Source: an uncultured archaeon (GTDB lineage Archaea > Asgardarchaeota > Thorarchaeia > Thorarchaeales > Thorarchaeaceae). From it: a stretch of DNA of 64,000 nt. This document shows, piece by piece, positions 7,181 to 64,000 of this stretch (position 1 is its first letter; the number at the start of each line of letters is the position of its first letter). The stretch spans positions 160,001-224,000 of the forward strand of contig CAZLEV010000002.1 in the NCBI GenBank assembly GCA_964558645.1, read 5' to 3'. Both the position numbers and the translations under genes were made by a program. The notes below the pieces were generated by a model, which worked only from the letters and a program-made list of their open reading frames with translations, made no database searches and had not been told where the DNA came from.

Positions 7181-7409
7181 GTTATGCGTTTTATCGTATG
7201 ATGATTAACTGCAGAGCCAAATTCGTCATAGAATGATTCGCTAATCTCTCACGGCGTCAGGTCTTGTACCCTCATGATCAAAATGAAGTCAATCTCTGCG
7301 CGAGTAAGACGGTCATCTCGGACCTTTCTTTGTGCACAGAGGCTCTGCTGAGAAACTCGAACACAGAGTTTAAGTCGCATGAGAGCAAGTACTGAATTAG
7401 GGAGGAGAA

Positions 7410-9278
7410 TTGAGAACTAGAGTTTTCCCTCTACTGATACTAGTGTTGATGACACTGTCGAATCCATCTGTCCGACCAAGCGTACCATTGTCCACAGAGA
7501 AGGGGTCTTTTTCGGTTGACGCAAATACGTCTTACGCAGTAACAGAAGATACAATCGTTATCTCTTCAAAGTCAGATTTTGAGACCTGGTCATCAAGTGG
7601 AAACGGGACGGAAGAGAACCCCTACATGGTTAGCGGGTTAAACATAGCCAGAGTGGCTCCTGCCCTAGTATTTGAGAATTCTAGATACCATTTCACCCTC
7701 AGAAACTGTAGTTTCGTTGGAGATGGAATTCACGATGCGTATCTGTTGGACCACTTCTTCTCTCTGTCTCCTCGAGAAGCAATTGTTATTCTAGACAATG
7801 TTAGCAACGGGAGGATAATAAACTGCTCTGCGAGTAATATCTCAGTTGGTGTTGCCCTACATAATTCGGAGAACTGTGAAGTCATCAATAGCTCGGTCAC
7901 ACTCTCAGGATGTGGGATTCTTCTGGAGAATTCTACGTCATGTGCTGTTCGCAACAGCGTCATTACCGATTCGTTCTACGGAATCAGTTTCCAAGAAACG
8001 GCTTCATCTCAAGTGTGGGAAAACACACTATCGGACTGTACCGAGTCCGGTATCTACCTCTCTCAGACAACAGCCTGTAGCATTATCAACAATACGATGA
8101 CAGGAGGGGGAATAGAATTTGCCAGATCTGAAGACTCTGCTCTGCGGCATTTCGAGCACGAGATCGAGACCAATGAGGTTGGAGGACGCCAGATTCTCTA
8201 TCTTCGTGAGAATCATAATCGAATGCTGGATTGCAGCGATTATTCACAGATGATTATCGTTGATTCAGACAACATCACACTGAGATCCGGAGAGTTCAGA
8301 AATGTATCAACAGCTGTTTTGCTCGCATTTTCACCTAGGTGCAGAGTGGAAGACAGTACTATCTCGTTTTCAGGCTCGGGAATCTCGATTCGTGAATCAT
8401 ATGATTGCAGCGTCAAGAACATTTCAGCGGCGTTCTGTGGTACTGCTGTTGAGGCGACTTCGTCCGAATCATTCATGGGCAGTGAAAACCATTTCCTGGC
8501 CTGCAATCAGGGCTTCTCTATTATCAACAGCTCCGATTGTGTCATATCACTGAATGATTTGGATGTGATACCAGGGCATCTGCGTGCAAGTGGAATCTGG
8601 GCATTCTATTCAACTGGGCTCTCTATTCTAAACAACTCAATTTACTTGGATAGGAATCATATGAACACCCTATTGAGTCTGCAAAGCACTGCAATAAACC
8701 CAATTTGGATTGGTGGAGGGATAAATCAGATGGATCCTCTCGTTCCGAAACTTGCGCCCGTTCCCCATTATATGTCCGGTGTAGCCATCCATGACATGAA
8801 TAAGGCTTCCATTCGGTACAATAACATATCCGGATTCTCCTATGGCGTCCATATGGCCAGCTGTAACTCATGCGTCATAGCCCGAAACCAGTTCCAGGAA
8901 ATCGTGCATTCATGTGTTACTCTTTTGCCATCTTGTACGAACAATGCCATCTACGGAAATATCTTTCAAGCTGCTAGGACGCCACTCGCAGCAGACTACG
9001 GGATAGGGAACACTTGGTACAACTCTACAAGCGGCGGCAACTACTGGAGCAACTACGGAGGCTGGGGGCCGTATCTGGTTGGCGGAAATGCGTCAAGTAT
9101 TGACTGGTATCCAAATGGGCAAAAGGGATTTCTTCATGTGTTCATCAGTGCTGCCGTTATAGCGGGGGTTTTTGTTATTGTAGTGATTCAATCAAAGATA
9201 CGTGATGGTGAGGTTGCTGTGGCCAAATGCGCTCGTATTTCATCTTCAAACATGTCAATAGGCCAGCAAATGCAATGA
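7410..9278 (+). CDS. Right-handed beta-helix (NosD/CASH) repeat surface protein
   Basis: Signal peptide, GNGTEENPY motif, repeated GIxLxxSxxCxIxNN units, GNYWSNY, C-terminal TM. Confidence 0.88.
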   Translation: MRTRVFPLLILVLMTLSNPSVRPSVPLSTEKGSFSVDANTSYAVTEDTIVISSKSDFETWSSSGNGTEENPYMVSGLNIARVAPALVFENSRYHFTLRNCSFVGDGIHDAYLLDHFFSLSPREAIVILDNVSNGRIINCSASNISVGVALHNSENCEVINSSVTLSGCGILLENSTSCAVRNSVITDSFYGISFQETASSQVWENTLSDCTESGIYLSQTTACSIINNTMTGGGIEFARSEDSALRHFEHEIETNEVGGRQILYLRENHNRMLDCSDYSQMIIVDSDNITLRSGEFRNVSTAVLLAFSPRCRVEDSTISFSGSGISIRESYDCSVKNISAAFCGTAVEATSSESFMGSENHFLACNQGFSIINSSDCVISLNDLDVIPGHLRASGIWAFYSTGLSILNNSIYLDRNHMNTLLSLQSTAINPIWIGGGINQMDPLVPKLAPVPHYMSGVAIHDMNKASIRYNNISGFSYGVHMASCNSCVIARNQFQEIVHSCVTLLPSCTNNAIYGNIFQAARTPLAADYGIGNTWYNSTSGGNYWSNYGGWGPYLVGGNASSIDWYPNGQKGFLHVFISAAVIAGVFVIVVIQSKIRDGEVAVAKCARISSSNMSIGQQMQ

Positions 9279-9355
9279 CTATGATAGCAGAGTATCCAAT
9301 AGGGAGAGATATACTTTGGAGTAAAGAAACCACTACCAAATCAACGCATTCGCGG

Positions 9356-10756
9356 CTAGATTTCCGTATTTGCATCGAGTTCAATGGCATATAACCCATC
9401 CTCAGAACGGGCAACCCTCATTTTGTTGTCCCTCAACCTGCTCTTGCCCATGATGGCACGAACGACATTCTTGGTTTCCCATAACGACTTGTAATGAGTT
9501 ACCTGGTCCCGGGCGGCTGAAGCAGAAAGAGATGGTGGCTCGGCGGTCGTCCGACGCCGACTAAGTACTGAGCTATTCTTCACTTCTATGAAGAGCGATG
9601 TTCCATTAGCAGTTGCAACAAGATCGACCTTCCCCCCGAGTACGGCTTGTTCCGACAGAAGCTCTGCAACTCCACCCACACCTAGATGAGTAGCGAGTTC
9701 GTCCCAAGTAGTTTCGATGCACTTCTTCGAAAAGGCTTGGAGATACAGCTCTGACCTGTTTATTCTGCGGTCCGGGTTTCTTCGTCCGGTTAGTACATCT
9801 TCGAGGATAGCCACCGGCTCTGCATTCATCCGCTGTTCGCAGGTGATGAACCATGGCAGAGCATCGACCCGCCGCCGACCTGTTTCAAACTGATTATAAC
9901 CAAAGACACGTTCAACATTCTCAAGTGGAACCTGAAAGTGCGACTTGCCGAATTGCATGCGAGATACTAGATTTGCACCCAAACGAGAGTACTCGTTCTT
10001 GAAGATGAACAAGCCACTCTTCTCCGTTTTCTTGATTCTCTTCAATCTCAGGCGGTAGGGAAAATAGTGATTGCCGCGGTTTCTACCCTTCTTTACTGCC
10101 TTCCATTTCGTATCCCCGCAGACTGGAACAGGGTCGTATTCTTCATTGCCCACGGCTATACCCTTCGCATATTCTCTGGGGATATACTTCTTTACGACTC
10201 TATACAAATCATACAGGCGAAAAGAGTGATAGAATGAGTAGTAGTCGCCCTCATCAATGTCGAGGAAGGCCCAGCGTCCGTGCGCCCCTTCCGGAAATCC
10301 CGCAGTTTCATGCTCTATAGAGATCATCAAGTTCTCGAGTGTGGCCATCAGATGGATGTAGAACTTGGGTCTTAGATAGAACTCACGAGGGATGTGTATG
10401 CTGAATTCATCAATAATAGGGAAAACCTCAGTTGGCGATTCTTGACCGACAACCACCGGGGGTATCTTCCTCGTTCTCAGTTTGACTGGACCTCGAGCCG
10501 TTCGCGCAGAGAATGGTTTTTTTCTGTCGTCCCTCAGTTTATAGTATCCATTGCCTTTCATTTCGAACACGGTGGGTTTTCTGGACATCTCGGTACGTAG
10601 AGATGCCCAAGGGGTCTTCCGTGACATCGGATTCGGGGGAGGTATAAGCCCCTTTTCCACAGCAAGGCTGGTGATTGTCTGGTAGTGAAGGGCTTCACCC
10701 GCCTCCTCAAGAATCTGCTTCGCTGCTTTCCACTTAGGAATGTACTTCGCACTCAT
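9356..10756 (-). CDS. HARE-HTH + EVE/PUA-like + PD-(D/E)XK nuclease; putative modification-dependent restriction enzyme
   Basis: N-terminal AAKQILEEAGEALHYQTITSLAVEKGL..KTPWASL (HARE-HTH); middle ENLMISIEH..GF..IDEGDYYSFYH..YFPYRLRLKRI (EVE-like); C-terminal GKVDLVA..LFIEVK..RDQVTHY. Start MSAKY at 10756 preferred over 10789. Confidence 0.75.
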   Translation of the reverse strand: MSAKYIPKWKAAKQILEEAGEALHYQTITSLAVEKGLIPPPNPMSRKTPWASLRTEMSRKPTVFEMKGNGYYKLRDDRKKPFSARTARGPVKLRTRKIPPVVVGQESPTEVFPIIDEFSIHIPREFYLRPKFYIHLMATLENLMISIEHETAGFPEGAHGRWAFLDIDEGDYYSFYHSFRLYDLYRVVKKYIPREYAKGIAVGNEEYDPVPVCGDTKWKAVKKGRNRGNHYFPYRLRLKRIKKTEKSGLFIFKNEYSRLGANLVSRMQFGKSHFQVPLENVERVFGYNQFETGRRRVDALPWFITCEQRMNAEPVAILEDVLTGRRNPDRRINRSELYLQAFSKKCIETTWDELATHLGVGGVAELLSEQAVLGGKVDLVATANGTSLFIEVKNSSVLSRRRTTAEPPSLSASAARDQVTHYKSLWETKNVVRAIMGKSRLRDNKMRVARSEDGLYAIELDANTEI

Positions 10757-10883
10757 TGATATACCCAACTCCAAAGATTGAACATGCACGCTTATGGGAT
10801 GGGCAGCTAATATGTGTACTTGATGCTTGGTTGGTAGCCATAGTTCGCTCGGTTGTTCCGAGTGAAATCATCAAAAGAGAATC

Positions 10884-11990
10884 ATGGGAGTATATCTTGA
10901 GGACAGGGTCATCGTGAATGCAGTGAGGGCAGTTCCAAACACCAAAGGGTTCGTGGAAAGCCTCTCATACTTTTCGATAGAGAACATCCTTGTCGACGTG
11001 TTCCTCAGATCCTATCCCCTTGACACTGACGTGCCAAAGGGCCTTCTGGATAAGATTCGGTGTATAAGAATCATCCAGATATCTGAGGATACTCTGACCG
11101 TGGGCCCCAAAAAACCGTTCGTCACCGCCATCATTCCATTCGATGAGATTGCCGCCATCACGGTTTCATCTGAAACGACTCGTCCGGATGAGGACGAAAT
11201 CGACGAGCGCATTGAGGCAGAGTGTCCCGCCTGGGAGAGAGAGTTCGCCGCGGAGATTGGGTCAAAGAGGAGAAAGATGATGAAGAGAAACAAGTCAGAT
11301 GCCATCCAGAGTCTGCATCCCGCTGAGTTCTGGGACTGTGTCAAGTCAGAAGAGTACGCCGTTGTCGATGTCTATGCTCCGTGGTGTCAACCGTGCAAGG
11401 AGGTGGAGGTTGTCCTGCAAGAGCTCGCCGAGAATCACGGAAACCGGGCGATCTTTGCCAGACTCGACGGTGATGAAGACGACAAGTTGACCGAGGAGCT
11501 GAACATCAGCGCGTATCCCACCGTTCTCCTGTTCCAGAACGGACAAATTGAGAGAACCATCGAAGGCGCGAGAAGCTTCGAGCGATACGAGAGGGAGATC
11601 GAGATACTGCTCGGCCTCCGCAAGAGGGAGGAACTCCGGAACGAGAGAGCCGATGGGAGTGTGAGCATCCTCTCCTCCGAGACCCTGATGGACTATGTTG
11701 ATGATTCGATGGCCTCTGTCATCATGTTCTTCGAGCGAGGGGACTACGAGTGTCAGTTGCAGTCCCGCGTGATGCGAGAGCTTGCTCAGGAGTATAGGGG
11801 GCGCGTCCTGTTTGCCAAGGCAGATGTGGATGCAGAGAAGGAGCTGGCCGAGCTATTCGAAGTTGAGGGAACTCCAGAGCTGTATTTCGTCCTCGATGGC
11901 GAGGTCGTTGCCTATGTTGATGGACGCATGACAAGAGGCGATCTTCGTCAGGAGTTGAACGAATTGCTCAAGGAAGCAGGATTGTCGTAG
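10884..11990 (+). CDS. Tandem thioredoxin-domain protein with uncharacterised N-terminal domain
   Basis: YAPWCQPC active site and cis-Pro AYPT in the first domain; second Trx-like domain has DYECQ (single Cys) and GTPEL. Confidence 0.88.
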   Translation: MGVYLEDRVIVNAVRAVPNTKGFVESLSYFSIENILVDVFLRSYPLDTDVPKGLLDKIRCIRIIQISEDTLTVGPKKPFVTAIIPFDEIAAITVSSETTRPDEDEIDERIEAECPAWEREFAAEIGSKRRKMMKRNKSDAIQSLHPAEFWDCVKSEEYAVVDVYAPWCQPCKEVEVVLQELAENHGNRAIFARLDGDEDDKLTEELNISAYPTVLLFQNGQIERTIEGARSFERYEREIEILLGLRKREELRNERADGSVSILSSETLMDYVDDSMASVIMFFERGDYECQLQSRVMRELAQEYRGRVLFAKADVDAEKELAELFEVEGTPELYFVLDGEVVAYVDGRMTRGDLRQELNELLKEAGLS

Positions 11991-12087
11991 CAGGGAAGGC
12001 AGACTGCTCTCCGGCATTTCTCGGGACAAGACTGATAAGAAGTGAAGAGGTTCATCCTGTGGATACATTCTATCGTGGTGGGTTTCT

Positions 12088-14880
12088 ATGAATCTCGAGA
12101 GACTGAGGGTATACGGTTATGCTGTCCTAATCAACAAGTTCGAGGCGGAGTTCAGAGAGTTTCTCTCAAACGATGTTCTTGCACTGAAGTACGGCCATCT
12201 GTGGCAGCAGGGGGTACCGAAAGGGATTGTGCAGATGGCTCGCGACCTTGCAGAAGTGAACAGATTTGAAGACCCGATGGACTTGCTGGATTACGTAGGA
12301 TTCCCCCATCTCAAAGAGATAGCAGCATACAGAAACAACTACACATCTTGTGACAGCTTTCTGGGAGAACTCTCGAAATCGGAGTTCACACGAGTCATGG
12401 ATGAGCTAGCCAAGCTAAGAAACAAAATAGCGCACGTGCGTCGGGCGTTTTCTCTTCTGGATTTTGACCGCCTCTTGGAACTTGTCGGCGTTCTATGCCA
12501 AGGGTATGCTGCCGCGGAAGTACGGGACTACGTCAGACTTGAGAGATACTGCGAGTTCGAAGATATACCACCCGGATTTGTCGTTGAGGAACAAGACTTC
12601 TCAATAACGTCGAATCTGCCCCCTGAGGAATACCATCTTGAGGGAGGATTCGTCGGAAGAAAAGAAGACAAGAAAAGGCTTGAAGAAGTACTCTTCTCCG
12701 ATTTGGATCGGGTCATTACTCTGACAGGAAGCGGTGGAGTAGGAAAGACTGCTCTCGCCCTCAACGTTGCATACAGTATCTGTGATGCCAAGGACTGTCC
12801 ATTCACGGCGATTGTCTGGTTTAGCGCCAAGACATCTAGGCTTACTCCAAAAGGAATAAGCGAACAAGCACCTGAAATACAGAACTTCGAGGAGTTTGTT
12901 AGAAGGGTTGTCAGCATACTGATTCCAAGTGCATCGGACATAATCGCTTCCGACGTTCCTCTTGAGAAGCTTGTACAACACCTAACAGACTATCTCTCAG
13001 AGAATCCTACATTATTGATTATCGATAATCTCGAAACAATTATGGAGGATCATGACCTTGTCAAGTTCCTCAAGGATGTGCCACGACCATCGAAGGCTCT
13101 AATCACAAGCAGAAGAGGATTAGGAGAAGTAGAGAGACGTATTTTTCTGGATGCTCTGTCAGAAGCGGACGCGATTCGGCTGTTCCGCTTGATTTGCAGA
13201 GACAAGGGTTTGAAGGCCTACCGTGAACTGCCAAACAAGCAGATTGCGGACCTCGTGGAAAGGGTCCAGAGATATCCACTCGCAATAAAGTGGTCTCTAG
13301 GAAAGGCTGCATTGGGCAAAGACGTCAATGAGGCATTTGAACTGCCTCTGAAGGGTACAAGCGATATTGCGAAATTCTGCTTTGAAGACATCTTTGGGAT
13401 GCTATCGACTGAAGCCAGGCATTGTCTCTACGGCATATCGATGTTTGATGAGCCGCCTTCAGGTACTCTTCTTAGGTATTTGATGGATCTCGATGATGAT
13501 GTTTTCGAGGATGCAATTCAAGAGCTAACCTTAGCTTCTTTTGTCTTCTATGACTCTCTCGAATCAGGTGACGGAGGAGTCACCACGGGATACGGGATCC
13601 TCTCTCTCACACAGGATTACGTTCAAGAGAAACTGAATCAAGAGGAAGAAGTACGAGTCAAATTAACAGACCGATTCTATAGGCTTAGGCAAATGGTGGA
13701 ACAAGAAGAGAAAGTGAGGTCACTCAGGTCATACTCGGTGTATAGTTTGGGTGCCAAGACTCCGGAGGATAGAGTCGCGGTCAACATGGTGAAAACGGCG
13801 AAAAGTCTGGCAAGTGACAGGAAATACTCTGAAGCGTCAGAACTATTCGAGAAGGCATTGGAGGTGGCCCCGACTCTAACATACGTCATTACAGAATATG
13901 CTAAGTATGAAGCGAGTAGAAGAAGATTCCGAGAGGCAGAAAGGCTTCTTGAGAGAGCTCTTGATGTGGAACCAACCAATTTCCACATATGGTATCAAGG
14001 GGGCATCCTGAAGAAACGGCAACATAAGCTTCAGGAAGCCAAAGGTATGCTGGAGAGAGGGCTTGAACTAAACCCAGACCACCCCAATCTTAGCATAGAA
14101 CTGGGCCGAGTCCTCACATTTCTGGAGGGTTTTGAGAATGCTGACACACTCTTTCGTCAGACTCTACAGAAAACGTCTCTAATCACAGGCAGACAAAAAG
14201 CAATACTGCTATCGCATCTGGCTGACAACTACCGACGATGGGGACAGGCTGAGAAACGACGGGGAAATCAAGATGAGGCAATTCGACTACTGAAAATGGG
14301 GTTGGAGCAGATTGACAAAGCCTTGAAGCTGTTGCCCGACAGAAGAACCGGTGATTCATGGAGGCGAGTTCATCAGGACTACGGCATTCTTCTCTGCCAG
14401 TGCGGCAAGATAGACGAGGGAGTCGCCCAGCTCGAAGCCGCCCTTCAGTCCATCAAGATTGGGGATAGAGAAATGCCTCTTGATCGTGAGTTCGAGGCCG
14501 GCACCTACTTCTATATTGCCGCCTACGAGATGAAAAGCAATAAGCCGAGACTCGACAGAGTACGAGCATTTGTTCAAAAGGGCCTATCTATTGTGCCGCA
14601 AAAGAGTAAATACAAGAAGAAACTTCAGAACCTGTCTGCAACTGCAAGGGAGGAGAAGGATCGCACAATAGGACGTATTCGCTTCTTCAATTCAAGAAGG
14701 GGCTACGGAATCATTGATACCTCAGATGAAACCTGTATATTCTATCCGTCTAGCTTTCGAGATTCTATCCAGAGTATTGCTCCTTCGTCCTTGAAGGGAA
14801 CACATGTTAGTTTTGTGGGAGAACCAACTAGAGAGTTCAGAGGAAAATGCCTAGCTTCAGATATTGTGATGGTGAGTTGA
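12088..14880 (+). CDS. NLR-like STAND protein: Swt1-like HEPN + NB-ARC + TPR + C-terminal cold-shock domain
   Basis: RNKIAH (RxxxxH) at 12418-12435; FVGR; Walker A GSGGVGKT at 12727-12750; Walker B LLIIDNLE; LITSR; YPLAI; TPR helices; GRIRFFNSRRGYGII (cold-shock RNP1). Confidence 0.88.
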   Translation: MNLERLRVYGYAVLINKFEAEFREFLSNDVLALKYGHLWQQGVPKGIVQMARDLAEVNRFEDPMDLLDYVGFPHLKEIAAYRNNYTSCDSFLGELSKSEFTRVMDELAKLRNKIAHVRRAFSLLDFDRLLELVGVLCQGYAAAEVRDYVRLERYCEFEDIPPGFVVEEQDFSITSNLPPEEYHLEGGFVGRKEDKKRLEEVLFSDLDRVITLTGSGGVGKTALALNVAYSICDAKDCPFTAIVWFSAKTSRLTPKGISEQAPEIQNFEEFVRRVVSILIPSASDIIASDVPLEKLVQHLTDYLSENPTLLIIDNLETIMEDHDLVKFLKDVPRPSKALITSRRGLGEVERRIFLDALSEADAIRLFRLICRDKGLKAYRELPNKQIADLVERVQRYPLAIKWSLGKAALGKDVNEAFELPLKGTSDIAKFCFEDIFGMLSTEARHCLYGISMFDEPPSGTLLRYLMDLDDDVFEDAIQELTLASFVFYDSLESGDGGVTTGYGILSLTQDYVQEKLNQEEEVRVKLTDRFYRLRQMVEQEEKVRSLRSYSVYSLGAKTPEDRVAVNMVKTAKSLASDRKYSEASELFEKALEVAPTLTYVITEYAKYEASRRRFREAERLLERALDVEPTNFHIWYQGGILKKRQHKLQEAKGMLERGLELNPDHPNLSIELGRVLTFLEGFENADTLFRQTLQKTSLITGRQKAILLSHLADNYRRWGQAEKRRGNQDEAIRLLKMGLEQIDKALKLLPDRRTGDSWRRVHQDYGILLCQCGKIDEGVAQLEAALQSIKIGDREMPLDREFEAGTYFYIAAYEMKSNKPRLDRVRAFVQKGLSIVPQKSKYKKKLQNLSATAREEKDRTIGRIRFFNSRRGYGIIDTSDETCIFYPSSFRDSIQSIAPSSLKGTHVSFVGEPTREFRGKCLASDIVMVS

Positions 14881-14942
14881 AGACCGGGGTCATCTATGCT
14901 GGATTCGGGCTACTGCCCGTAAACCGCTGACGGAACAACGTA

Positions 14943-16670
14943 CTACTCCTCGTCTTCTTCCGGCCATAGTATGCGGTAGTTGTAGTCGGACTCGCTCAGG
15001 TTCAGCTCTTTTCTGATACGCTTCAAGATGAGATTTGTGCGTTCTCGCAAGAAGCGCCGGTACTTTCGTAGGTCAAGTAGATCCCTTTCTATCAGCGCTC
15101 TTTTCATCTCGGATTCTACCACATCTGCGAAGTAGTCTTTCGGATGTGAGTCGCTTTTTTGCCGGTTCTTTGACCTCGCAAGAATCCAAAAATTCGCAAC
15201 ATGATTTATCTCGGACCACTCATATCTATCAGATAGAAGGGCTTTGGGAAATATGTGATCGATTTCAGGTGCGTTGCCCTGATATTTGAGACCAGTCAGG
15301 TTCCTACCTTGAATGAGATGATGAGTCAGGTAAGTGTTCTCTCCTAGCATATCAGCATCGAGCTCAGAGAACCTGTGGTAGTCGTATACCCACTTGACTC
15401 CTTCTCTCAGAGGGAATGTATAGTCATTCTGTTCGACTCGCGGTTGAATATGGTTTCTGATGAACTTCCAAGGTCGAGAGTCCGCGTATCGTGAGAAAGG
15501 AGAAACCCAACTGAAAAGATAGACAGACTTCTTCGCAGCCTCAACTTGACCTTGCGGTACCTGGTGATTCGGCGCGTGATAGAGATAGTAGATCAGAGGA
15601 ATCAGGTTGTTATTGCTCGATATGAGCTTCTCACTTCTCAGGTGGCATTCTTCTGTCACAAAATCCACTGCAGCCGATATGGCTGCTACACCCTCATCGA
15701 AGTTTCGCATAATCAGGTCGACATTTGATTTCTTCCGCAGACGGTCCAAATCGAATCTGGTCCCAAGACCAGAAACAGCGTAAAGACATCGAATCACAAA
15801 ATCGTTTGTGATATCCAGATAGTTGCCTTCATTTATGTCGCGTACAAAGTCAGGAAGACGCACAGCTGAGTCCCGCCACTGCAGCTTCAAGAGACTGAAT
15901 ATCAGATCGGACCGTGCCAGTGGAGTACCTTCTCGGTTCACCCTGAAGAAAGCCTCCAAGACATCTGACTCCGATTTCCTGCTCCGATCATCCTCCATTT
16001 TTCCTTCGTCAATGACTGACCATTTCAGGATGTATCCGTCCATTGCAATTGCATCAACGAGTCGCCCCATGTTGACACGGATTCTTAGACGCTCGTCCGG
16101 AGGTAATGAATAGTCCTCCGCAATCTTGTCTTCCAATGCCATTCGTCCTTGATGCCCCATTTTGATGATGTCTTTAACTCTGATGGAGTATTCCACCGAT
16201 TCCCAGTCAACATCATCTCCTTCCCCCTTGACATAGTCAAGGTTCTCGTTATTCCCTTCCTCCGCTTCATCTCGTTTCAAGAAGAAGAATTCATACTTCT
16301 CTTCTTTGAAGTCATCTCCATCGTAACCACTGAGAATGTTCAAGTAGAGCTGCCTTCCCTCATAGCTCCCGTTGAGTGCCAGATAGAGTGCCTGCAGCCG
16401 CTGTTGACCGTCCAACACTAGTTTCAGGTGTTTCTTGCGGGGATTATCCTCGAATATATGAGGGATATCAGGTTGATAGTCCTTCAGAAACTTCCTGTGG
16501 TCGATGTCTTTGAAAGTGTCCCACAGCAGGACGATACCTATAGGGTACCCACGCATCAGGGAATCAAACAACTTGGTAATCTTGTCTTCATCCCAAACGA
16601 AGTCTCTTTGAATTGCAGGTAGTACAATACTTCCGCGTTCAATCTCACCCAGCAACTGCATTATGGTCAT
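14943..16670 (-). CDS. gmrSD: GmrSD-family (DUF262 + DUF1524/HNH) type IV restriction endonuclease
   Basis: LPAIQRDFVW, LDGQQRL, FFRVNREG, EIDHIFPK..N..N. Likely start MTIMQLL at 16670 (ORF track extends to 16790). Confidence 0.9.
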   Translation of the reverse strand: MTIMQLLGEIERGSIVLPAIQRDFVWDEDKITKLFDSLMRGYPIGIVLLWDTFKDIDHRKFLKDYQPDIPHIFEDNPRKKHLKLVLDGQQRLQALYLALNGSYEGRQLYLNILSGYDGDDFKEEKYEFFFLKRDEAEEGNNENLDYVKGEGDDVDWESVEYSIRVKDIIKMGHQGRMALEDKIAEDYSLPPDERLRIRVNMGRLVDAIAMDGYILKWSVIDEGKMEDDRSRKSESDVLEAFFRVNREGTPLARSDLIFSLLKLQWRDSAVRLPDFVRDINEGNYLDITNDFVIRCLYAVSGLGTRFDLDRLRKKSNVDLIMRNFDEGVAAISAAVDFVTEECHLRSEKLISSNNNLIPLIYYLYHAPNHQVPQGQVEAAKKSVYLFSWVSPFSRYADSRPWKFIRNHIQPRVEQNDYTFPLREGVKWVYDYHRFSELDADMLGENTYLTHHLIQGRNLTGLKYQGNAPEIDHIFPKALLSDRYEWSEINHVANFWILARSKNRQKSDSHPKDYFADVVESEMKRALIERDLLDLRKYRRFLRERTNLILKRIRKELNLSESDYNYRILWPEEDEE

Positions 16671-16995
16671 TCGCGACCCTCCTATATCACAATCCGGAAC
16701 TGTACACAGGGTATACTGCTGTCCCATATAAATGGAGATGGTTCTCGACAGTTCTAATCGCAGATAGTGCCGCCCCGGGACATCTTCCATACCAACAAGC
16801 AGAACAGATGTCGGTTTCTGTCAGAGGGGACCTTATGGCTTTCCTCTCTCCTCTTTCTACAGATCTCTTGTCACAAAAGTGATTCGAATGATTTTCAGCG
16901 AATCTTCTATACAGTGGAACGAGGCATAGTTTCTCGTTTAACCGGAGATGGTCCACGGAAGCGCATGCCCGAAATCACATAGGTGGTGGGAGTGG

Positions 16996-17163
16996 ATGGG
17001 TAGGAAGGGACGCAGTCCCGATGGCCATAGGTCGGACTCAAAGAACTCAAACAACCCGGCGTATCAGGAAGCAGTGGACAACAGGGCAAACCAGCTGAAC
17101 CCGGAGCAGAAAGCATGTCGTTCGTCACGGAAATCGGAAGCGGACGACTCGGATGACGAGTGA
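16996..17163 (+). CDS. Small hydrophilic peptide with a degenerate NPxx repeat
   Basis: MGRKGRSPDGHRSDSKNSNNPAYQEAVDNRANQLNPEQKACRSSRK..., preceded by the SD-like AGGTGGTGGGAG. Confidence 0.55.
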   Translation: MGRKGRSPDGHRSDSKNSNNPAYQEAVDNRANQLNPEQKACRSSRKSEADDSDDE

Positions 17164-17376
17164 TTGGTTTGTGTCACAGGATGAATCGACTACACGTCAG
17201 ATCCTGGAGGGGGCATCATGGCCCCCTTTTTCCCCTTCTTAATGACCTATATCGAGCAATCCGACCTTCAGGGATATCAACGACTAAGAAGGGGAACTGG
17301 GTCACACGCCTCCCACCTCTTCCATACCAGAGTTCCCGCAAGGGCAAGAACTCATTAGCAAAGGCGAGCAATGTGT

Positions 17377-17393
17377 TGTGACGCATAGTCACG
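17377..17393. promoter_or_regulatory. Palindromic operator candidate (T)GTGAC-N5-GTCAC
   Basis: TGTGACGCATAGTCACG about 30 nt upstream of the ATG at 17424; conserved in copy 2. Confidence 0.55.
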
Positions 17394-17423
17394 TCGAGAA
17401 TGTAACGACGGAGGTTCAACAGC

Positions 17424-17738
17424 ATGGCGATAATCGTGGGTTATTTCCCACTCCTCACCTACATCATCTTGATTTTGACGGTCATATATCTCGTCTACAG
17501 GAAAAACTGGATAGAGGATGAAGGCAGTTTTCGAATGAAAGCACTCACCGTTCTTGGCATCATCATCGCGTGTTCACTCCTGAACACGATACTATTGACA
17601 GCCCCAATTCTCGATGGAACGGGGTTTGCCAGCAGCCTACCTGAACTCGTGATGTGGATATGGCCTGATCTCCTAGTACTTGTGGTCTTGGGTGCGGACA
17701 TCATCAGGACCGGCGGTTTCCGTATTTTAAGAGAGTAA
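17424..17738 (+). CDS. Small 3-TM membrane protein (paralog A)
   Basis: Hydrophobic 104 aa; about 78% identical to 22177..22488 by manual alignment. Confidence 0.8.
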   Translation: MAIIVGYFPLLTYIILILTVIYLVYRKNWIEDEGSFRMKALTVLGIIIACSLLNTILLTAPILDGTGFASSLPELVMWIWPDLLVLVVLGADIIRTGGFRILRE

Positions 17739-18123
17739 TGGCTCTACAACCGGGACGAGCTTGGTTATCAATGAGTGTCAGTTCCAAAGAATGGCACGCA
17801 AAAGAGATCGGATTTGAGTGCCTGCCTTTACCACCCTGAGGTGCCGGTTTCTTTCCCTCGATGAATCCTACAAGCATGAGCCAGTGAACAACCCTGCATC
17901 CCTCAACTCCGGGGTGTACCCATCATCTCTACCTAACTACCACTTCGAAAACTGTAGACTGATTAGTGATCTTCATCTCTCAGTCTGAATCTGTGGTTAT
18001 GAGATGGCATCTGAACCGAGATATTGGGAATCACGGAAAGGCCGAGTAGTTCAGACCTCTCCGTATGACTCCCACACTCGGGAATTCGGCCTCTGAAGCG
18101 TCACGTACTGCACACTGACAAGA

Positions 18124-61085: not shown

Positions 61086-61388
61086 GGCGCTGTATCATTC
61101 GAAGGCGGAGAGCCCAAGGTAGACCACTGCCTGTATGGTGTCACAGCATAATCTCTGGCCTACAGCACCTGTAGAATGTGGCAGTGAATGCTAGGGCCAT
61201 GTACAATGCGTATTTTTTCAGACTACTCTCGAAAAAGAAAAAGAGAGAGAAGACTAATATGATGTTTCTGCGCTCAATACAAGAGTTGCATCTGGGAGAA
61301 GAACGAATACAGCAATCCCCTGGCGGCCATGTTGGGACCGACATTGACTCACATCAAAGGCACTCCCATTCAAGGAGAGAGAGTATCA

Positions 61389-64000
61389 ATGGGTTCGAAG
61401 AGAAACGCATTCCTGTTCCTAGCATTCGTTGGCGTCCTGACAGTACTACTGAGTGCTACGCCGATTCTATCTTCCACCTTAGATATCCGCGAGAATGACC
61501 ACTGGGAATACCCTGTAGAAAGCAACCCGGAGTCAGGATACTCTGTTTCTGATAGGGAGCAGCATTCGCCCATCACGATCACGGGGAACAGTCAATTTGC
61601 TTCAATGGCCCAAGAGAATGGATGGCCGGGTTCAGGAGCTGCTGGCGACCCCTATGTGATTACAGGCCTAGAGATTGATGTCGGAGGAGAGTGGGGCAGC
61701 TGTATCACTATCGAGGCTACCGATGTCCATTTCCAGATATCTGACTGCCTGCTGAAGGGAGCAAGCATCGGTGATGGATACGGCGAGGGGTGCGGCATCC
61801 GACTCGTTGACGTACAGAATGGCGAACTGAGAAATAACATCTTGCCTGGCAACCAAATCGGAATAGCCCTGGGCACACCTGACCAGTTCAGTGCGAGTAC
61901 TGCATCAAGTTTCATTGTCATAGAGGGAAATGATCTTAGTGGCTCTACCGAAGGGATTGTAGTCCGTGGATCTTCTGACAATACAATAGAGGATAACACA
62001 TGTAATGGTTGTGCATTCGGGATTCAAGTCGATCACACATATGACGCCATCACTGAGGAGTTAGTTCGTTCCCAGCGGAACATCATCCGTCGGAATACAA
62101 TAGGGTTCTCCAGTGATGTCGGTATCATGGTCAGGATATCCGATCAGATATCGATTACTGAGAACGTGATACGCCGTGGCCTCGGAAAAGGAGTAAGCAT
62201 TCAGGATGTGACAAACACAGCTCTCTCAGAAAACATCCTACTGAACAACAAAGTGAACGCAGAATTTGGTATCGCCCTGAGCGCGAGCACTGTCGACTCA
62301 AACCTCTGGTCAGACTATGATGGTGTTGATGCAGACTATGATGGTATTGGTGACACTCCCTACACAGGACCAGGCTTCGAAGACCACCATCCCAGGATAT
62401 GGCTCAGCGGCTACCGGCTCCCACTGGTGATTGATGGCGACTCCGATCTTGAAGAACGAGCACTGGGAGAGGGTTGGGGCGGGGATGGTAGTTCAAGCAA
62501 CCCGTACGTCTTTGAGAATTACCGCATTGAGGGCAGCAGTGATGCCTGTGTCAGCATCAATCGCCTGATATCAAAACATGTTGCCATTCGGAGTTGTCAT
62601 CTATCGTATGGAACATCCGGGATTCATATTGAAAACGTGAACACATTCGTGACTGTTGAACAGAACACAATCTCTGAGACCGACCACGGGGTCTTGCTCC
62701 AGGCGGACTTGTCAGAACCGTACGCTGAACCATTCGCGAACATCGTTGACAATCAGTTCACGAATAATGGTGTTGGAGTCTTTCTCTCACAGGCCGGTTG
62801 CTTGATGAGTTTCAATATTATCACGGGCAGCCGAGGTTTCGGAGTCTATGCCGAGAACTCACGAAATGTGGACATCTCAGACAATAGAATAGCCGAGTCG
62901 GAATCAGATGGCATCCACCTGTATAATGTACACGAGTTCTCTCTCAGTTTGAACAACTGCTCTGCCAATGGGGGGCATGGACTCGTTCTTGAGGACTGTA
63001 CAGGGTCCGTGGACCCAGATGGAATTGGATGGCTAGAACAGAACATCCTCTCATACAACGAATATGGATTGTATCTTGGTGCAGGTACAGCAGATTGTGG
63101 TTTCCGGGGCAATGTTGTCAGGGGGCGTACTGCTGATGCGGTAGACCATGGAACTGGAAACATCTTCCAGCAGAATACATGGTGGGGTTACACTGGAGTT
63201 GATTTGAACAATGACGGAATTGGTGATACCCCGTATGCATTCACAGGTAACCACGACCCGACTCCAGTATTCCCGTTGTACTGGGTGACTGCCCCCACTG
63301 ATCAGCAGATGGAGACTGTCGAGCCGTTCATCTATGACCTCGACGCCGAGTCATCCTGGCCTGATCTTACCTGGAGCATCAATGATACTCGGTTCACAGT
63401 GAGCAACGACGGAGTCATTGAAAACGCGACTCCGTTGGTTGAGCAGTTCTATCCATTAGAGGTTACGGTGGAGGGGGGAGGAGTTCTATCCGACACCTTC
63501 ACTCTTGCGGTCGTACAAGATATTGAACCACCGGAAACCACTGCTGACGTATTGGGGGAGATGGGGTTGAATGGATGGTATACCTCCGAGGTCACAGTGA
63601 CTCTCACAGCAGAGGACTATCCAGAAAACACCGGTCTGGGAGTGGACTACATTGAGTATCATGTTGAGGTGTCTGCTGATACTTCGGGAAGTGGGTCGAG
63701 CAGTTCGACAACGATCAAACCTGCAACTATTGCGCCGTTCTGGCAGCTCTACGATGGACCCATTCTTGTCGGGGATGAGGGGGCTATTACAGTCTACTTC
63801 AGAGCAGTTGACCTTGCCGGGAATGTCGAGGATACCAAGTCTGTCACATTCTACATTGACAAGAGTGCTCCTGAAACCTCTGCAGCCCTGGCTGGCGACT
63901 TTACATCGACAATGTGGTACTATACAGATGTGGAAGTCACCCTCACAGCAACGGATGCATATTCTGGGGTCTCCAGTATTTTATACAGCTTTGACGGAGA
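61389..64000 (+). CDS. Large secreted beta-helix (NosD/CASH) plus Ig-like repeat surface protein (runs off window end)
   Basis: Absent from the ORF track because it has no stop in the window. ATG 61389 MGSKRNAFLFLAFVG..; GWPGSGAAGDPYVI and a second GWGGDGSSSNPYV module; DGIGDTPY twice; then PPETT..NGWYTSEVTVTLTAED..DLAGNVE Ig-like repeats. Confidence 0.88.
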   Translation, partial: MGSKRNAFLFLAFVGVLTVLLSATPILSSTLDIRENDHWEYPVESNPESGYSVSDREQHSPITITGNSQFASMAQENGWPGSGAAGDPYVITGLEIDVGGEWGSCITIEATDVHFQISDCLLKGASIGDGYGEGCGIRLVDVQNGELRNNILPGNQIGIALGTPDQFSASTASSFIVIEGNDLSGSTEGIVVRGSSDNTIEDNTCNGCAFGIQVDHTYDAITEELVRSQRNIIRRNTIGFSSDVGIMVRISDQISITENVIRRGLGKGVSIQDVTNTALSENILLNNKVNAEFGIALSASTVDSNLWSDYDGVDADYDGIGDTPYTGPGFEDHHPRIWLSGYRLPLVIDGDSDLEERALGEGWGGDGSSSNPYVFENYRIEGSSDACVSINRLISKHVAIRSCHLSYGTSGIHIENVNTFVTVEQNTISETDHGVLLQADLSEPYAEPFANIVDNQFTNNGVGVFLSQAGCLMSFNIITGSRGFGVYAENSRNVDISDNRIAESESDGIHLYNVHEFSLSLNNCSANGGHGLVLEDCTGSVDPDGIGWLEQNILSYNEYGLYLGAGTADCGFRGNVVRGRTADAVDHGTGNIFQQNTWWGYTGVDLNNDGIGDTPYAFTGNHDPTPVFPLYWVTAPTDQQMETVEPFIYDLDAESSWPDLTWSINDTRFTVSNDGVIENATPLVEQFYPLEVTVEGGGVLSDTFTLAVVQDIEPPETTADVLGEMGLNGWYTSEVTVTLTAEDYPENTGLGVDYIEYHVEVSADTSGSGSSSSTTIKPATIAPFWQLYDGPILVGDEGAITVYFRAVDLAGNVEDTKSVTFYIDKSAPETSAALAGDFTSTMWYYTDVEVTLTATDAYSGVSSILYSFDG

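What the first reader, a model, noticed from the sequence alone, without database searches (positions are those of the whole stretch)
12088..14880. NLR-like protein with an N-terminal HEPN RNase and a C-terminal cold-shock nucleic-acid-binding domain
Seen: RNKIAH (HEPN RxxxxH), a complete NB-ARC motif set, a TPR array and a terminal cold-shock domain in one 930-aa protein. Known: prokaryotic STAND/Avs proteins use TPRs to sense phage proteins and oligomerise to activate an N-terminal effector, and HEPN RNases form active sites by dimerising. Inference: an archaeal, likely Asgard, NLR-like abortive-infection receptor in which oligomerisation turns on an RNase. The cold-shock domain could sense or deliver single-stranded RNA/DNA. 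I do not recognise this architecture as a characterised system.
Basis: partly seen in the sequence, partly recalled or inferred. Interest (0 to 1): 0.85.

Follow-up and report, generated by a model that had tools for sequence, protein, structure and literature searches.

The report
HEPN-STAND-TPR-cold-shock defence-type gene
A Thorarchaeota (Asgard) genome carries an intact, horizontally acquired gene for a one-protein, NLR-like switch with an RNA-cutting head and a cold-shock RNA/ssDNA-binding tail. It is probably an untested antiviral suicide sensor, but this domain layout was already catalogued by comparative genomics in 2013.

Summary
ORF 12088-14880 (+) encodes 930 aa with four domains:
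- a HEPN domain (R111-x4-H116 invariant in 43 homologues; fold match to AbiF, Z 9.8);
- an NB-ARC STAND ATPase (all motifs invariant; Z about 25 to NRC4 and CED-4);
- a roughly 300-aa TPR array;
- a C-terminal cold-shock domain (family profile against CspB, E 1e-9).

The genome is Thorarchaeota, so the Asgard guess is right. The gene is single-copy and was not found in 40 related genomes. It sits beside a full-length HEC-05 (GmrSD-type) candidate defence gene, in a stretch with no DNA match in same-genus genomes.

It belongs to a widespread, patchily distributed family of about 930 aa in archaea and bacteria, with no conserved partner gene.

The architecture is not new. Anantharaman et al. 2013 list "Swt1-like HEPN + STAND-ATPase + TPR + S1" and mention cold-shock-like tails. 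SAMD9/Avs9 has an analogous RNase-STAND-TPR-OB layout. I found no experiment on this family.

This scan has already followed up the same family in other genomes (16 notes in at least 11 genomes), with the same verdict.

Most likely it is an Avs-like abortive-infection RNase. This is a new member of a known kind, of moderate to low interest.

The parts
12077..12082 (+). GGTGGG Shine-Dalgarno-like box, 5 nt upstream of the ATG
   Evidence: Read directly from the sequence. It supports the annotated start.
12088..14880 (+). Whole gene, 930 aa plus stop: HEPN, NB-ARC STAND ATPase, TPR array, cold-shock domain
   Evidence: ORF list and translation. Full-length homologues at 30-58% identity. Full-length AF2 model with pLDDT 85.6.
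12088..12567 (+). HEPN domain, Swt1/Abi2-like subtype (residues 1-160)
   Evidence: Pfam HEPN_Swt1 E 2.9e-5. PADLOC PDC-M34B E 1.8e-6. AF2 pLDDT 90.8. VIA-align AbiF Z 9.8 plus many HEPN structures.
12418..12435 (+). R-N-K-I-A-H, the Rx4H catalytic motif (residues 111-116)
   Evidence: R111 and H116 are invariant; K113, I114 and A115 are at least 90% conserved in 43 homologues.
12568..12657 (+). Conserved linker (residues 161-190) with invariant N176, P178, G187, G190, R191
   Evidence: Alignment A1. This is the most conserved segment, at 59% mean pairwise identity. pLDDT is low around residues 169-187.
12658..13155 (+). Nucleotide-binding domain of the NB-ARC module (residues 191-356). Walker A 214-221 = nt 12727-12750. 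Walker B DNxE 309-316 = nt 13012-13035. Sensor-1 TSR 340-342.
   Evidence: Pfam NB-ARC E 1.1e-7, above the cut-off. Motifs invariant. Z 25.3 to NRC4, 24.7 to CED-4 and 22.1 to Apaf-1.
13156..13755 (+). Helical domain (357-425, with invariant Y396-P-L398), winged-helix domain (426-505) and a long helical spine (506-556)
   Evidence: Secondary structure of the full-length model. The structural alignment of residues 172-590 to NLR and apoptosome NB-ARC modules covers these parts. Motif conservation.
13756..14658 (+). TPR-type helical repeat array (residues 557-857), the presumed sensor. Its C-terminal half is the most variable part of the protein.
   Evidence: Pfam TPR_14, TPR_2, TPR_19 and others. 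Z about 21 to the LGN TPR and consensus TPR proteins over 558-861. Pairwise identity is 37% for 557-700 and 25% for 701-857.
14659..14877 (+). Cold-shock domain (residues 858-930): a five-stranded OB barrel with an RNP1-like R-G-Y-G-I-I motif
   Evidence: Family profile against CspB 2i5l, E 1e-9. Strands at 859-868, 873-877, 882-885, 906-913 and 921-928. G862 is invariant. The aromatic at 873 is kept in 42/43, at 866 in 36/43 and F885 in 37/43.

Best explanation
This is a stand-alone, horizontally acquired, NLR-like (Avs-type) immune switch.

Proposed resting state: an ADP-bound, autoinhibited monomer.

Proposed sequence of events:
1. A virus-derived ligand is recognised by the variable C-terminal TPR array, probably together with the cold-shock domain.
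2. This allows nucleotide exchange in the NB-ARC module and oligomerisation.
3. Oligomerisation brings the N-terminal HEPN domains together in pairs, so that two Rx4H motifs form composite RNase sites.
4. RNA cleavage arrests or kills the infected cell (abortive infection).

The cold-shock domain most likely holds single-stranded RNA, either to feed substrate to the HEPN sites or as part of the sensing surface.

Shown here: the four domains, the intact catalytic and ATPase motifs, family-wide conservation, accessory and patchy distribution, and a defence-gene neighbour.

Inferred, not shown: RNase activity, the trigger, oligomerisation, and the antiviral role.
For: Domain evidence:
- HEPN fold with invariant R111 and H116.
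- NB-ARC with every nucleotide-binding motif invariant, and Z about 25 to resistosome and apoptosome subunits.
- Cold-shock domain at profile level, with most nucleic-acid-face aromatics kept.
- The C-terminal TPR half and the cold-shock domain are the fastest-evolving parts (25% and 29% pairwise identity, against 50% for the NBD), as expected of a sensor.

Distribution:
- The gene is single-copy.
- It was not found in 40 relatives, including 2 of the same genus and 22 of the same family.
- Window ~7.2-18 kb has no DNA match in 2 same-genus genomes, although the flanks do.
- The family is scattered over Bathy-, Woese-, Prometh-, Odin- and Heimdall-archaeota, methanogens, Bacteroidota, Cyanobacteria, Chloroflexota, Clostridia and Arcobacter.

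Gene context:
- The convergent neighbour at 14943-16790 is a full-length PADLOC HEC-05 (GmrSD_N) candidate defence gene, E 2.4e-75.
- Restriction-modification genes, toxin-antitoxin genes or integrases lie next to 4 of 6 homologues inspected.
- RM methylase, AbiLi, AriA and AAA_21 hits occur among 100 neighbours of 14 further loci.
- No partner gene is conserved, which fits a one-protein system.
- The HEPN subtype matches a component of the PADLOC defence candidate PDC-M34.

Precedent from the literature:
- Avs proteins oligomerise on ligand binding to activate N-terminal effectors (PMC13581612).
- SAMD9/Avs9 combine an RNase, a STAND NTPase, TPRs and a cold-shock-like OB fold, and kill cells through the nuclease site (PMC12680541 and PMC5445408).
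Against: - No experiment on any family member was found in the held literature.
- No PADLOC AVAST/Avs model matches.
- Two of six homologue contexts inspected had no recognisable defence or mobile-element gene nearby: Methanoregula, between TBP and a hydrogenase operon, and P0038.
- The defence signal among 100 pooled neighbours is modest, and no background rate was computed.
- The TPR sensor (about 300 aa) is shorter than the sensors of at least 400 aa that Lee et al. analysed.
- Walker B reads D-N rather than D-D/E, so hydrolysis may rely on E316 or be slow. That is my inference.
- No conserved MHD-type histidine was seen in the winged-helix region.
Confidence: 0.6

Rival explanations
1. Same switch, but the trigger is a nucleic acid rather than a viral protein. 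The cold-shock domain, with the adjacent TPRs, would bind viral single-stranded RNA or DNA, such as replication intermediates or abundant transcripts. That binding would license oligomerisation and HEPN activation.
For: A nucleic-acid-binding barrel is retained at the extreme C-terminus across the family, and most RNP1/RNP2-face aromatics and a basic residue are conserved. In one relative (P0111) the C-terminal cold-shock domain is replaced by a TRAM domain, another RNA-binding barrel, while the N-terminal effector is also swapped. This suggests selection for a C-terminal RNA binder. The TPR array is short for a protein-fold sensor. The cold-shock domain evolves fast, like the sensor half.
Against: All prokaryotic STAND sensors characterised in the papers I read detect proteins (PMC13581612). 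The second RNP1 aromatic (F17 of CspB) is aliphatic in 34 of 43 members. Substrate delivery to the RNase explains the same data equally well. There is no binding or structural evidence.
Confidence: 0.17
2. A housekeeping or stress-response RNA regulator rather than an immune gene. Here the STAND switch would sense a cellular metabolite or stress signal, as the MalT, GutR and AfsR regulators do. It would use HEPN plus the cold-shock domain to process or degrade specific host RNAs.
For: Non-defence STAND clades are interspersed with defence clades (PMC13581612). JGI names several homologues 'LuxR family glucitol operon activator', reflecting similarity to GutR-type STANDs. Some homologues sit among ordinary metabolic genes. 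Cold-shock domains are classically stress-linked.
Against: There is no DNA-binding HTH. The gene was not found in any of the 40 related genomes searched and is scattered across distant phyla, which is unlike a housekeeping regulator. It lies in a variable stretch next to a defence candidate. The RNase motif is invariant, and this HEPN subtype occurs in Abi-type and defence-candidate proteins.
Confidence: 0.12
3. A selfish addiction or conflict module of a mobile element. The HEPN toxin would be kept in check by the ATPase, TPR and cold-shock parts. It would stabilise the island or act in inter-element competition rather than protect the host from viruses.
For: HEPN domains are common toxins of toxin-antitoxin systems (PMC3710099). 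Integrases, transposase fragments and TA genes lie near some homologues. The island is variable.
Against: No antitoxin-like partner is conserved. No integrase or transposase was seen beside this copy among the ORFs scanned. Large STAND proteins with sensor repeats are typical of ligand-triggered immunity, not addiction.
Confidence: 0.06

Closest known systems
Swt1-like HEPN + STAND-ATPase + TPR + S1/cold-shock OB proteins catalogued by Anantharaman, Makarova, Burroughs, Koonin and Aravind 2013 (Biol Direct 8:15; examples Npun_F6454, MED222_16016, Desac_1927)
   Same: The same four-part layout in the same order. The same HEPN subtype (Swt1/Abi2-like, predicted active). The paper's text also notes N-terminal HEPN + STAND + C-terminal cold-shock-like OB fold. 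A Nostoc relative appears among my loci (L015).
   Different: That entry is a one-line computational listing of bacterial examples, with no mechanism and no experiment. The copy here is in a Thorarchaeota genome. I did not align it directly to the three named proteins.
Avs / AVAST antiviral STAND NTPases (Avs1-5; Avs7-21 of Lee et al., Nature 2026)
   Same: A single large protein with an N-terminal effector, a central STAND NTPase and a C-terminal TPR-like sensor. Patchy, horizontally transferred and found in defence islands. The expected logic is ligand-induced oligomerisation that activates the effector.
   Different: No PADLOC AVAST model matches. The effector is a HEPN RNase. The sensor is short and ends in a cold-shock domain. 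No trigger or phage protection has been shown. I could not place it in Lee et al.'s 589 clades because their supplementary tables are not held.
SAMD9/SAMD9L and bacterial Avs9 (AlbA_2 RNase, SIR2, STAND, TPR, cold-shock-like OB fold)
   Same: An RNase effector at the N-terminus, a STAND NTPase, TPRs and a C-terminal OB fold 'most similar to cold-shock proteins'. SAMD9 structures rank second in the Foldseek search with the full-length model (E 7e-12).
   Different: There is no AlbA_2 and no SIR2. On re-alignment the NTPase module matches plant NLR, CED-4 and Apaf-1 NB-ARC best, and SAMD9 is not among the top 50 rows. I therefore read this as an analogous layout, possibly convergent, not membership.
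PH0952 of Pyrococcus horikoshii (PDB 6mfv), an archaeal STAND with a TPR sensor
   Same: It is the best Foldseek match of the full-length model (E 9.7e-17, 722 columns): an archaeal NB-ARC-type ATPase followed by TPRs.
   Different: The entry title names only a STAND with a TPR sensor. No HEPN or cold-shock correspondence was shown here, and sequence identity is 16%.
AbiF (PbAbiF, PDB 8vz6) and other Abi2/AbiD/AbiF HEPN abortive-infection proteins
   Same: It is the best structural match of the N-terminal domain (Z 9.8, 143 aa). It belongs to the same Abi2/Swt1 HEPN group as defined by Anantharaman 2013.
   Different: AbiF is a small stand-alone HEPN dimer bound to a non-coding RNA (entry title). 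Here the HEPN domain is the head of a 930-aa ATPase switch. Identity is 14%.

Membership tests
STAND NTPase, NB-ARC / AP-ATPase type | P-loop NTPase with Walker A (GxxxxGK[ST]) and Walker B | tested here: met
   G214-S-G-G-V-G-K220-T221 and L309-L-I-I-D313-N314-L-E316 are invariant in 43 homologues. Walker B reads DN rather than DD/DE.
STAND NTPase, NB-ARC / AP-ATPase type | Pfam NB-ARC profile above its gathering score, and an NBD-HD-WHD fold | tested here: met
   PF00931 scores 31.8 bits against a cut-off of 23.5, and all 43 of 43 relatives hit it. Model residues 180-540 align to NRC4 (Z 25.3, 319 aa, rmsd 3.5), CED-4 (Z 24.7) and Apaf-1 (Z 22.1).
STAND NTPase, NB-ARC / AP-ATPase type | Sensor-1 arginine (RNBS-B, TT/SR) and GxP motif in the helical domain | tested here: met
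   T340-S-R342 and Y396-P-L398 are invariant.
STAND NTPase, NB-ARC / AP-ATPase type | MHD-type histidine in the winged-helix domain | tested here: inconclusive
   No invariant His between residues 426 and 520; the only His-rich column (464) is H in 24 of 43 and Y in this protein. I did not establish positional equivalence to MHD.
HEPN superfamily | All-alpha HEPN bundle fold | tested here: met
   AF2 pLDDT 90.8, all-helical. The matches are dominated by HEPN proteins: AbiF Z 9.8; 1wwp, Swt1 4pqz and 2hsb at Z 6.7-6.8; Csm6, a HEPN toxin, sacsin, AbiA and Cas13b at Z 5-6.2. Apart from AbiF, the Z values lie in the range where helical bundles can match by chance. What counts is the consistency of the hit list together with the motif.
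HEPN superfamily | Rx4-6H motif | tested here: met
   R111-N-K-I-A-H116; R and H are invariant in 43 of 43.
Swt1-like HEPN (Pfam PF18731) | Profile match above the gathering score | tested here: inconclusive
   This protein scores 24.7 bits (E 2.9e-5) against a cut-off of 27.5. 22 of 43 relatives match at E<0.01, the best at 5e-7. Relative P0094 scores 31.6 bits, above the cut-off.
Cold-shock domain (Pfam PF00313) | Profile similarity to Csp / Y-box cold-shock domains | tested here: met
   The single sequence gives only E 0.23. The family profile gives CspB 2i5l E 1e-9, CspA 3e-8 and YB-1 4e-8 over the whole domain. Some relatives carry a precomputed PF00313 hit.
Cold-shock domain (Pfam PF00313) | Five-stranded OB barrel with RNP1/RNP2 aromatic face | tested here: met
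   Five strands lie between residues 859 and 928. Positions equivalent to CspB W8, F15 and K13 are aromatic or basic in 36, 42 and 38 of 43 members; the F17 equivalent is aromatic in only 9 of 43. Actual binding is not testable here.
Avs1-5 (AVAST) as modelled in PADLOC-DB 2.0 | Match to an AVAST profile | tested here: not met
   No AVAST model appears at E<=1 for the whole protein, or at E<=0.01 for residues 186-930.
Avs (functional definition: antiviral STAND) | Protection against phage or virus, and activation by a viral ligand | not testable with these tools
   No experiment on this family turned up in the literature searches.
SAMD9 / Avs9 | AlbA_2 nuclease and SIR2-like domain N-terminal to the NTPase | tested here: not met
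   Pfam finds only HEPN_Swt1 (and a weak RiboL-PSP HEPN hit) in residues 1-185. The N-terminal fold matches HEPN proteins.
SAMD9 / Avs9 | STAND + TPR + C-terminal cold-shock-like OB chassis | tested here: inconclusive
   The layout is the same, and SAMD9 ranks second in Foldseek (E 7e-12). The NTPase module aligns better to NB-ARC proteins. No phylogeny was made.

The most novel reading that the evidence does not exclude
The cold-shock domain is the sensing element. The protein would then be a prokaryotic NLR-like receptor triggered by viral single-stranded RNA or DNA rather than by a viral protein. That would couple nucleic-acid recognition directly to a HEPN RNase in one polypeptide, and the TRAM-ended relatives would be a parallel solution.
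Probability: 0.15. Interest if true: 0.7.

Novelty: new member of a known kind. Interest (0 to 1): 0.3.

Why it matters
If the family does what its parts suggest, it is a compact, one-gene antiviral switch whose output is RNA cleavage. Its C-terminal RNA/ssDNA binder could add nucleic-acid handling to the NLR scheme. It also parallels human SAMD9 (RNase, STAND, TPR, OB).

The family is widespread in archaea, including Asgard lineages and culturable methanogens, where very few defence systems have been tested. That makes it a reasonable candidate for experiment.

This copy adds an Asgard example and a clear island context, but no new principle. The layout was catalogued in 2013, and the same family has been picked up repeatedly in this scan.

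The gene is horizontally acquired and was not found in relatives. It therefore says nothing about the origin of eukaryotic NLRs.

Tried and rejected
- HEPN homodimer prediction (complex prediction, two copies of residues 1-185 with alignment A2): no verdict, score 0.00. I do not use it either way.
- Foldseek of the HEPN model against the PDB: nothing at E<=0.001, although AbiF was first at E 0.43. The VIA-align wide search was needed to see the fold.
- Sequence-profile search of the HEPN domain against PDB chains: nothing significant.
- Whole-protein profile against the PDB: swamped by TPR proteins.
- Thioredoxin linkage. The tandem thioredoxin gene at 10884-11990 is co-oriented, with its stop 97 nt upstream. 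No thioredoxin appears upstream of any homologue inspected, and none is among the 25 commonest Pfam families of 100 pooled neighbours. I treat it as an accidental neighbour.
- Phage records: no tblastn match at E<=1e-10.
- Plasmid records: only distant NB-ARC relatives covering at most 60% of the query at 25-33% identity.
- RNA evidence: no RNA holder listed; read laying was not run.
- 'TOTE' conflict-system literature, prompted by a PF22707 S1CSD-TOTE-2 neighbour in L091: no paper found. The C-terminus here does not hit that Pfam family.
- Supplementary tables of Lee et al. 2026, which would give the STAND clade and its defence score, are not held.
- SAMD9 homology of the NTPase: not supported by the structural re-alignment.
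- Sigma-70 promoter and terminator scan: at background level, and not appropriate for an archaeon.
Full report
**1. Observation**

The + strand ORF at 12088-14880 is open for 930 codons. A GGTGGG box lies 5 nt before the ATG.

HEPN
- RNKIAH occupies residues 111-116.
- In an alignment of 43 full-length homologues (30-58% identical), R111 and H116 are invariant. K113, I114 and A115 are at least 90% conserved.
- Pfam gives HEPN_Swt1 at E 2.9e-5, which is 24.7 bits against a 27.5-bit cut-off.
- 22 of 43 relatives hit the same model. One relative, P0094, passes the cut-off.
- An AlphaFold2 model of residues 1-185 is confident (pLDDT 90.8).
- In an all-against-all structural search its best match is the abortive-infection protein AbiF (8vz6_B, Z 9.8, 143 residues, rmsd 3.1).
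- A run of HEPN proteins follows at Z 5-6.8: Thermus and Archaeoglobus HEPNs, yeast Swt1 C-terminal domain, Csm6, a HEPN/MNT toxin, sacsin, AbiA and Cas13b.
- Apart from AbiF these Z values are individually unremarkable for helical bundles. The consistent hit list plus the invariant motif make the call secure.

NB-ARC
- Pfam NB-ARC passes its threshold.
- Walker A (G214...K220-T), Walker B (D313-N-x-E316), sensor-1 (T340-S-R342) and the Y396-P-L398 motif are invariant.
- In the full-length model (pLDDT 85.6, pTM 0.54), residues 180-540 align to the NRC4 resistosome (Z 25.3), CED-4 (24.7), plant TIR-NLRs and Apaf-1 (22.1).
- No conserved MHD-type histidine was evident.

TPR
- There are many Pfam TPR hits.
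- Helical repeats span 557-857, with Z about 21 to LGN and consensus TPR proteins.

Cold-shock domain
- The single sequence is weak (E 0.23).
- A profile of the last ~90 residues of the family matches CspB at E 1e-9, and dozens of Csp and Y-box structures over the full domain.
- The model shows a five-stranded barrel.
- Positions equivalent to CspB W8, K13 and F15 are kept in 36, 38 and 42 of 43 members.
- The F17 equivalent is mostly aliphatic.

A second marine-sediment study holds 93% of the gene's sampled words, so the gene is not an assembly artefact.

**2. Organism and setting**

The genome is 3.63 Mb in 37 contigs, and the window is contig 2:160001-224000. It encodes an unsplit RpoB that is 98-99% identical to Candidatus Thorarchaeota entries. 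The Asgard guess is therefore right.

- The gene is single-copy.
- It was not found in 40 related genomes, including 2 of the same genus and 22 of the same family. Most of these are at least 90% complete.
- A 20-kb DNA query around the gene matched same-genus genomes only in the flanks: the acyl-CoA dehydrogenase near 5.8-7.1 kb, the catalase block at 18.1-20.0 kb, and 22.0-22.6 kb.
- Nothing between about 7.2 and 18 kb matched.
- That stretch holds a NosD-like protein, a HARE-HTH protein, a tandem thioredoxin, this gene, and a convergent 615-aa gene at 14943-16790 (-).
- The last of these is a full-length match to the PADLOC candidate HEC-05, which has a GmrSD_N domain (E 2.4e-75).

**3. The family**

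- A word-indexed search found 449 relatives. More than 100 are clusters at 90% identity, typically about 920-950 aa long, with 31-58% identity over 95-100% of the query.
- Named examples come from Methanoregula, Methanosarcina spelaei, Odin- and Heimdall-archaea, Methanomassiliicoccales, Arcobacter suis and a Colwellbacteria genome.
- A scan of one genome per species added Bathy-, Woese- and Prometh-archaeota, Methanocellaceae, Anaerocolumna, Flavobacteriia, Bacteroidales, Cyanobacteria, Gastranaerophilales and Anaerolineae.
- A profile of the HEPN domain alone, run against 1.84 billion representatives, found 933 proteins at E<=1e-3 and 50 at E<=1e-30. About half of the stronger hits listed are 915-960 aa with the domain at the N-terminus. 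The rest are mostly short and are likely fragments.
- This HEPN subtype therefore occurs mainly as the head of this architecture.

Neighbourhoods differ from genome to genome:

| Homologue | Neighbourhood |
|---|---|
| P0007 | RM methylase and specificity subunit directly upstream; a PemK toxin |
| P0063 (Promethearchaeota) | Type I RM about 4 kb away |
| P0018 | A methylase, a transposase fragment and TA genes |
| P0085 (Arcobacter) | An integrase island |
| P0036 (Methanoregula) | No recognisable defence or mobile-element gene |
| P0038 | No recognisable defence or mobile-element gene |

- Pooling 100 neighbours from 14 further loci gave a few RM methylases, AbiLi-, AriA- and AAA_21-type ATPases and integrases. 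No family recurred beyond 4 of 100.
- So there is no conserved partner. The defence association is plausible, but I did not test it against a background.
- Across the family the C-terminal TPR half (25% mean pairwise identity) and the cold-shock domain (29%) vary most. The NBD (50%) and the linker (59%) vary least.
- One relative, P0111, keeps the NB-ARC-TPR core. It has a HerA/DUF87-like ATPase in place of HEPN and a TRAM domain in place of the cold-shock domain.

**4. Mechanism**

The best reading is an Avs-type, ligand-gated switch:
1. The variable TPR and cold-shock end recognises an infection cue.
2. The NB-ARC module exchanges nucleotide and oligomerises.
3. The HEPN heads are brought into pairs, so that two Rx4H motifs form RNase sites.
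4. RNA cleavage arrests the cell.

This is inference. It rests on intact motifs and on established behaviour of STAND proteins and HEPN RNases: Avs proteins (PMC13581612) and HEPN biology (PMC3710099).

The role of the cold-shock domain is open. It could deliver substrate, sense nucleic acid, or autoinhibit. A dimer prediction for the HEPN domain gave no verdict and is not used.

**5. Comparison with what is known**

- The architecture is already in the literature. Table 1 of Anantharaman et al. [quoted passage not shown] The text mentions N-terminal HEPN + STAND + C-terminal cold-shock-like OB folds.
- Kaur et al. 2020 list S1-like and cold-shock OB folds among the RNA-binding domains they discuss with the effector domains of NTP-dependent conflict systems.
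- No PADLOC AVAST model matches.
- The 2026 census of 589 STAND clades, with tests of Avs7-21, does not mention a HEPN-TPR-cold-shock family in its main text. Its tables are not held.
- SAMD9/9L and bacterial Avs9 share the logic RNase, STAND, TPR, cold-shock-like OB. SAMD9 ranks second in Foldseek.
- However, the NTPase here aligns better to NB-ARC proteins, and the AlbA_2 and SIR2 domains are absent. I treat the resemblance as analogy.
- PH0952 (6mfv) is the closest solved archaeal STAND-TPR.

**6. Earlier notes of this scan**

After I had reached the reading above, the scan's index showed the same family in other genomes: 16 notes hold these words, in at least 11 genomes. Eight were shown, each with a follow-up that reached the same verdict: catalogued in 2013, untested. 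One copy was reported in a P4-satellite variable slot. I did not check that claim.

**7. Verdict**

The function is plausible but unproven, and the novelty is overstated.

This is a new, Asgard member of a known, computationally described but experimentally untested kind. Interest: 0.3.

Noticed in passing
window 14943-16790 (-): A 615-aa gene convergent with the STAND gene. It is a full-length match to the PADLOC candidate defence protein HEC-05 (E 2.4e-75) and has a Pfam GmrSD_N/DUF262 domain, so it is a likely type IV restriction-like nuclease.
   Followed up: partly
window 9356-10789 (-): A 477-aa protein with an N-terminal HARE-HTH match just below the Pfam cut-off (E 7.7e-5, 23.5 bits against 25.9) and no PADLOC match. 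The rest of the protein is unassigned by Pfam.
   Followed up: no
window 10884-11990 (+): A 368-aa protein with thioredoxin domains (two matched stretches), co-oriented with the STAND gene and ending 97 nt upstream of it. No thioredoxin lies upstream of any homologue inspected, so the pairing looks accidental.
   Followed up: yes
window ~7200-18000: This stretch has no DNA match in two same-genus genomes or in one same-family genome. The flanks do match: acyl-CoA dehydrogenase at 87% and the catalase block at 94%. It looks like a variable region, but its borders cannot be fixed because the matches lie on different contigs.
   Followed up: partly
P0111 (relative, 1330 aa, JGI metagenome): A variant of the same NB-ARC-TPR core. 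It has a HerA/DUF87-like ATPase at the N-terminus instead of HEPN and a TRAM domain at the C-terminus instead of the cold-shock domain.
   Followed up: partly
L091 4285-5550 (-), Promethearchaeota contig JAEOTA010000022.1: About 2.4 kb upstream of a family member lies a 421-aa protein with TPRs, DUF7017 and a weak S1CSD-TOTE-2 hit. This is another TPR + S1/cold-shock combination. No literature on 'TOTE' systems was found.
   Followed up: partly
L004 6401-9315 and L016 10055-14183: The family members in a Methanocellaceae MAG and an Anaerolineae MAG are each split into two overlapping ORFs. These are possible frameshifts or pseudogenes, or sequencing errors.
   Followed up: no
window 7410-9278 (+) and 61329-63998 (+, runs off the window): Two large NosD / right-handed beta-helix proteins lie in the same window.
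   Followed up: no
P0193, P0215, P0217, P0218, P0223, P0224 (Asgard RpoB relatives, ~1612-1624 aa): Several Asgard RpoB homologues are about 500 aa longer and carry Pfam PF14890 (I recall this as an intein-splicing domain; not checked here), whereas this genome's RpoB has no such insert.
   Followed up: no
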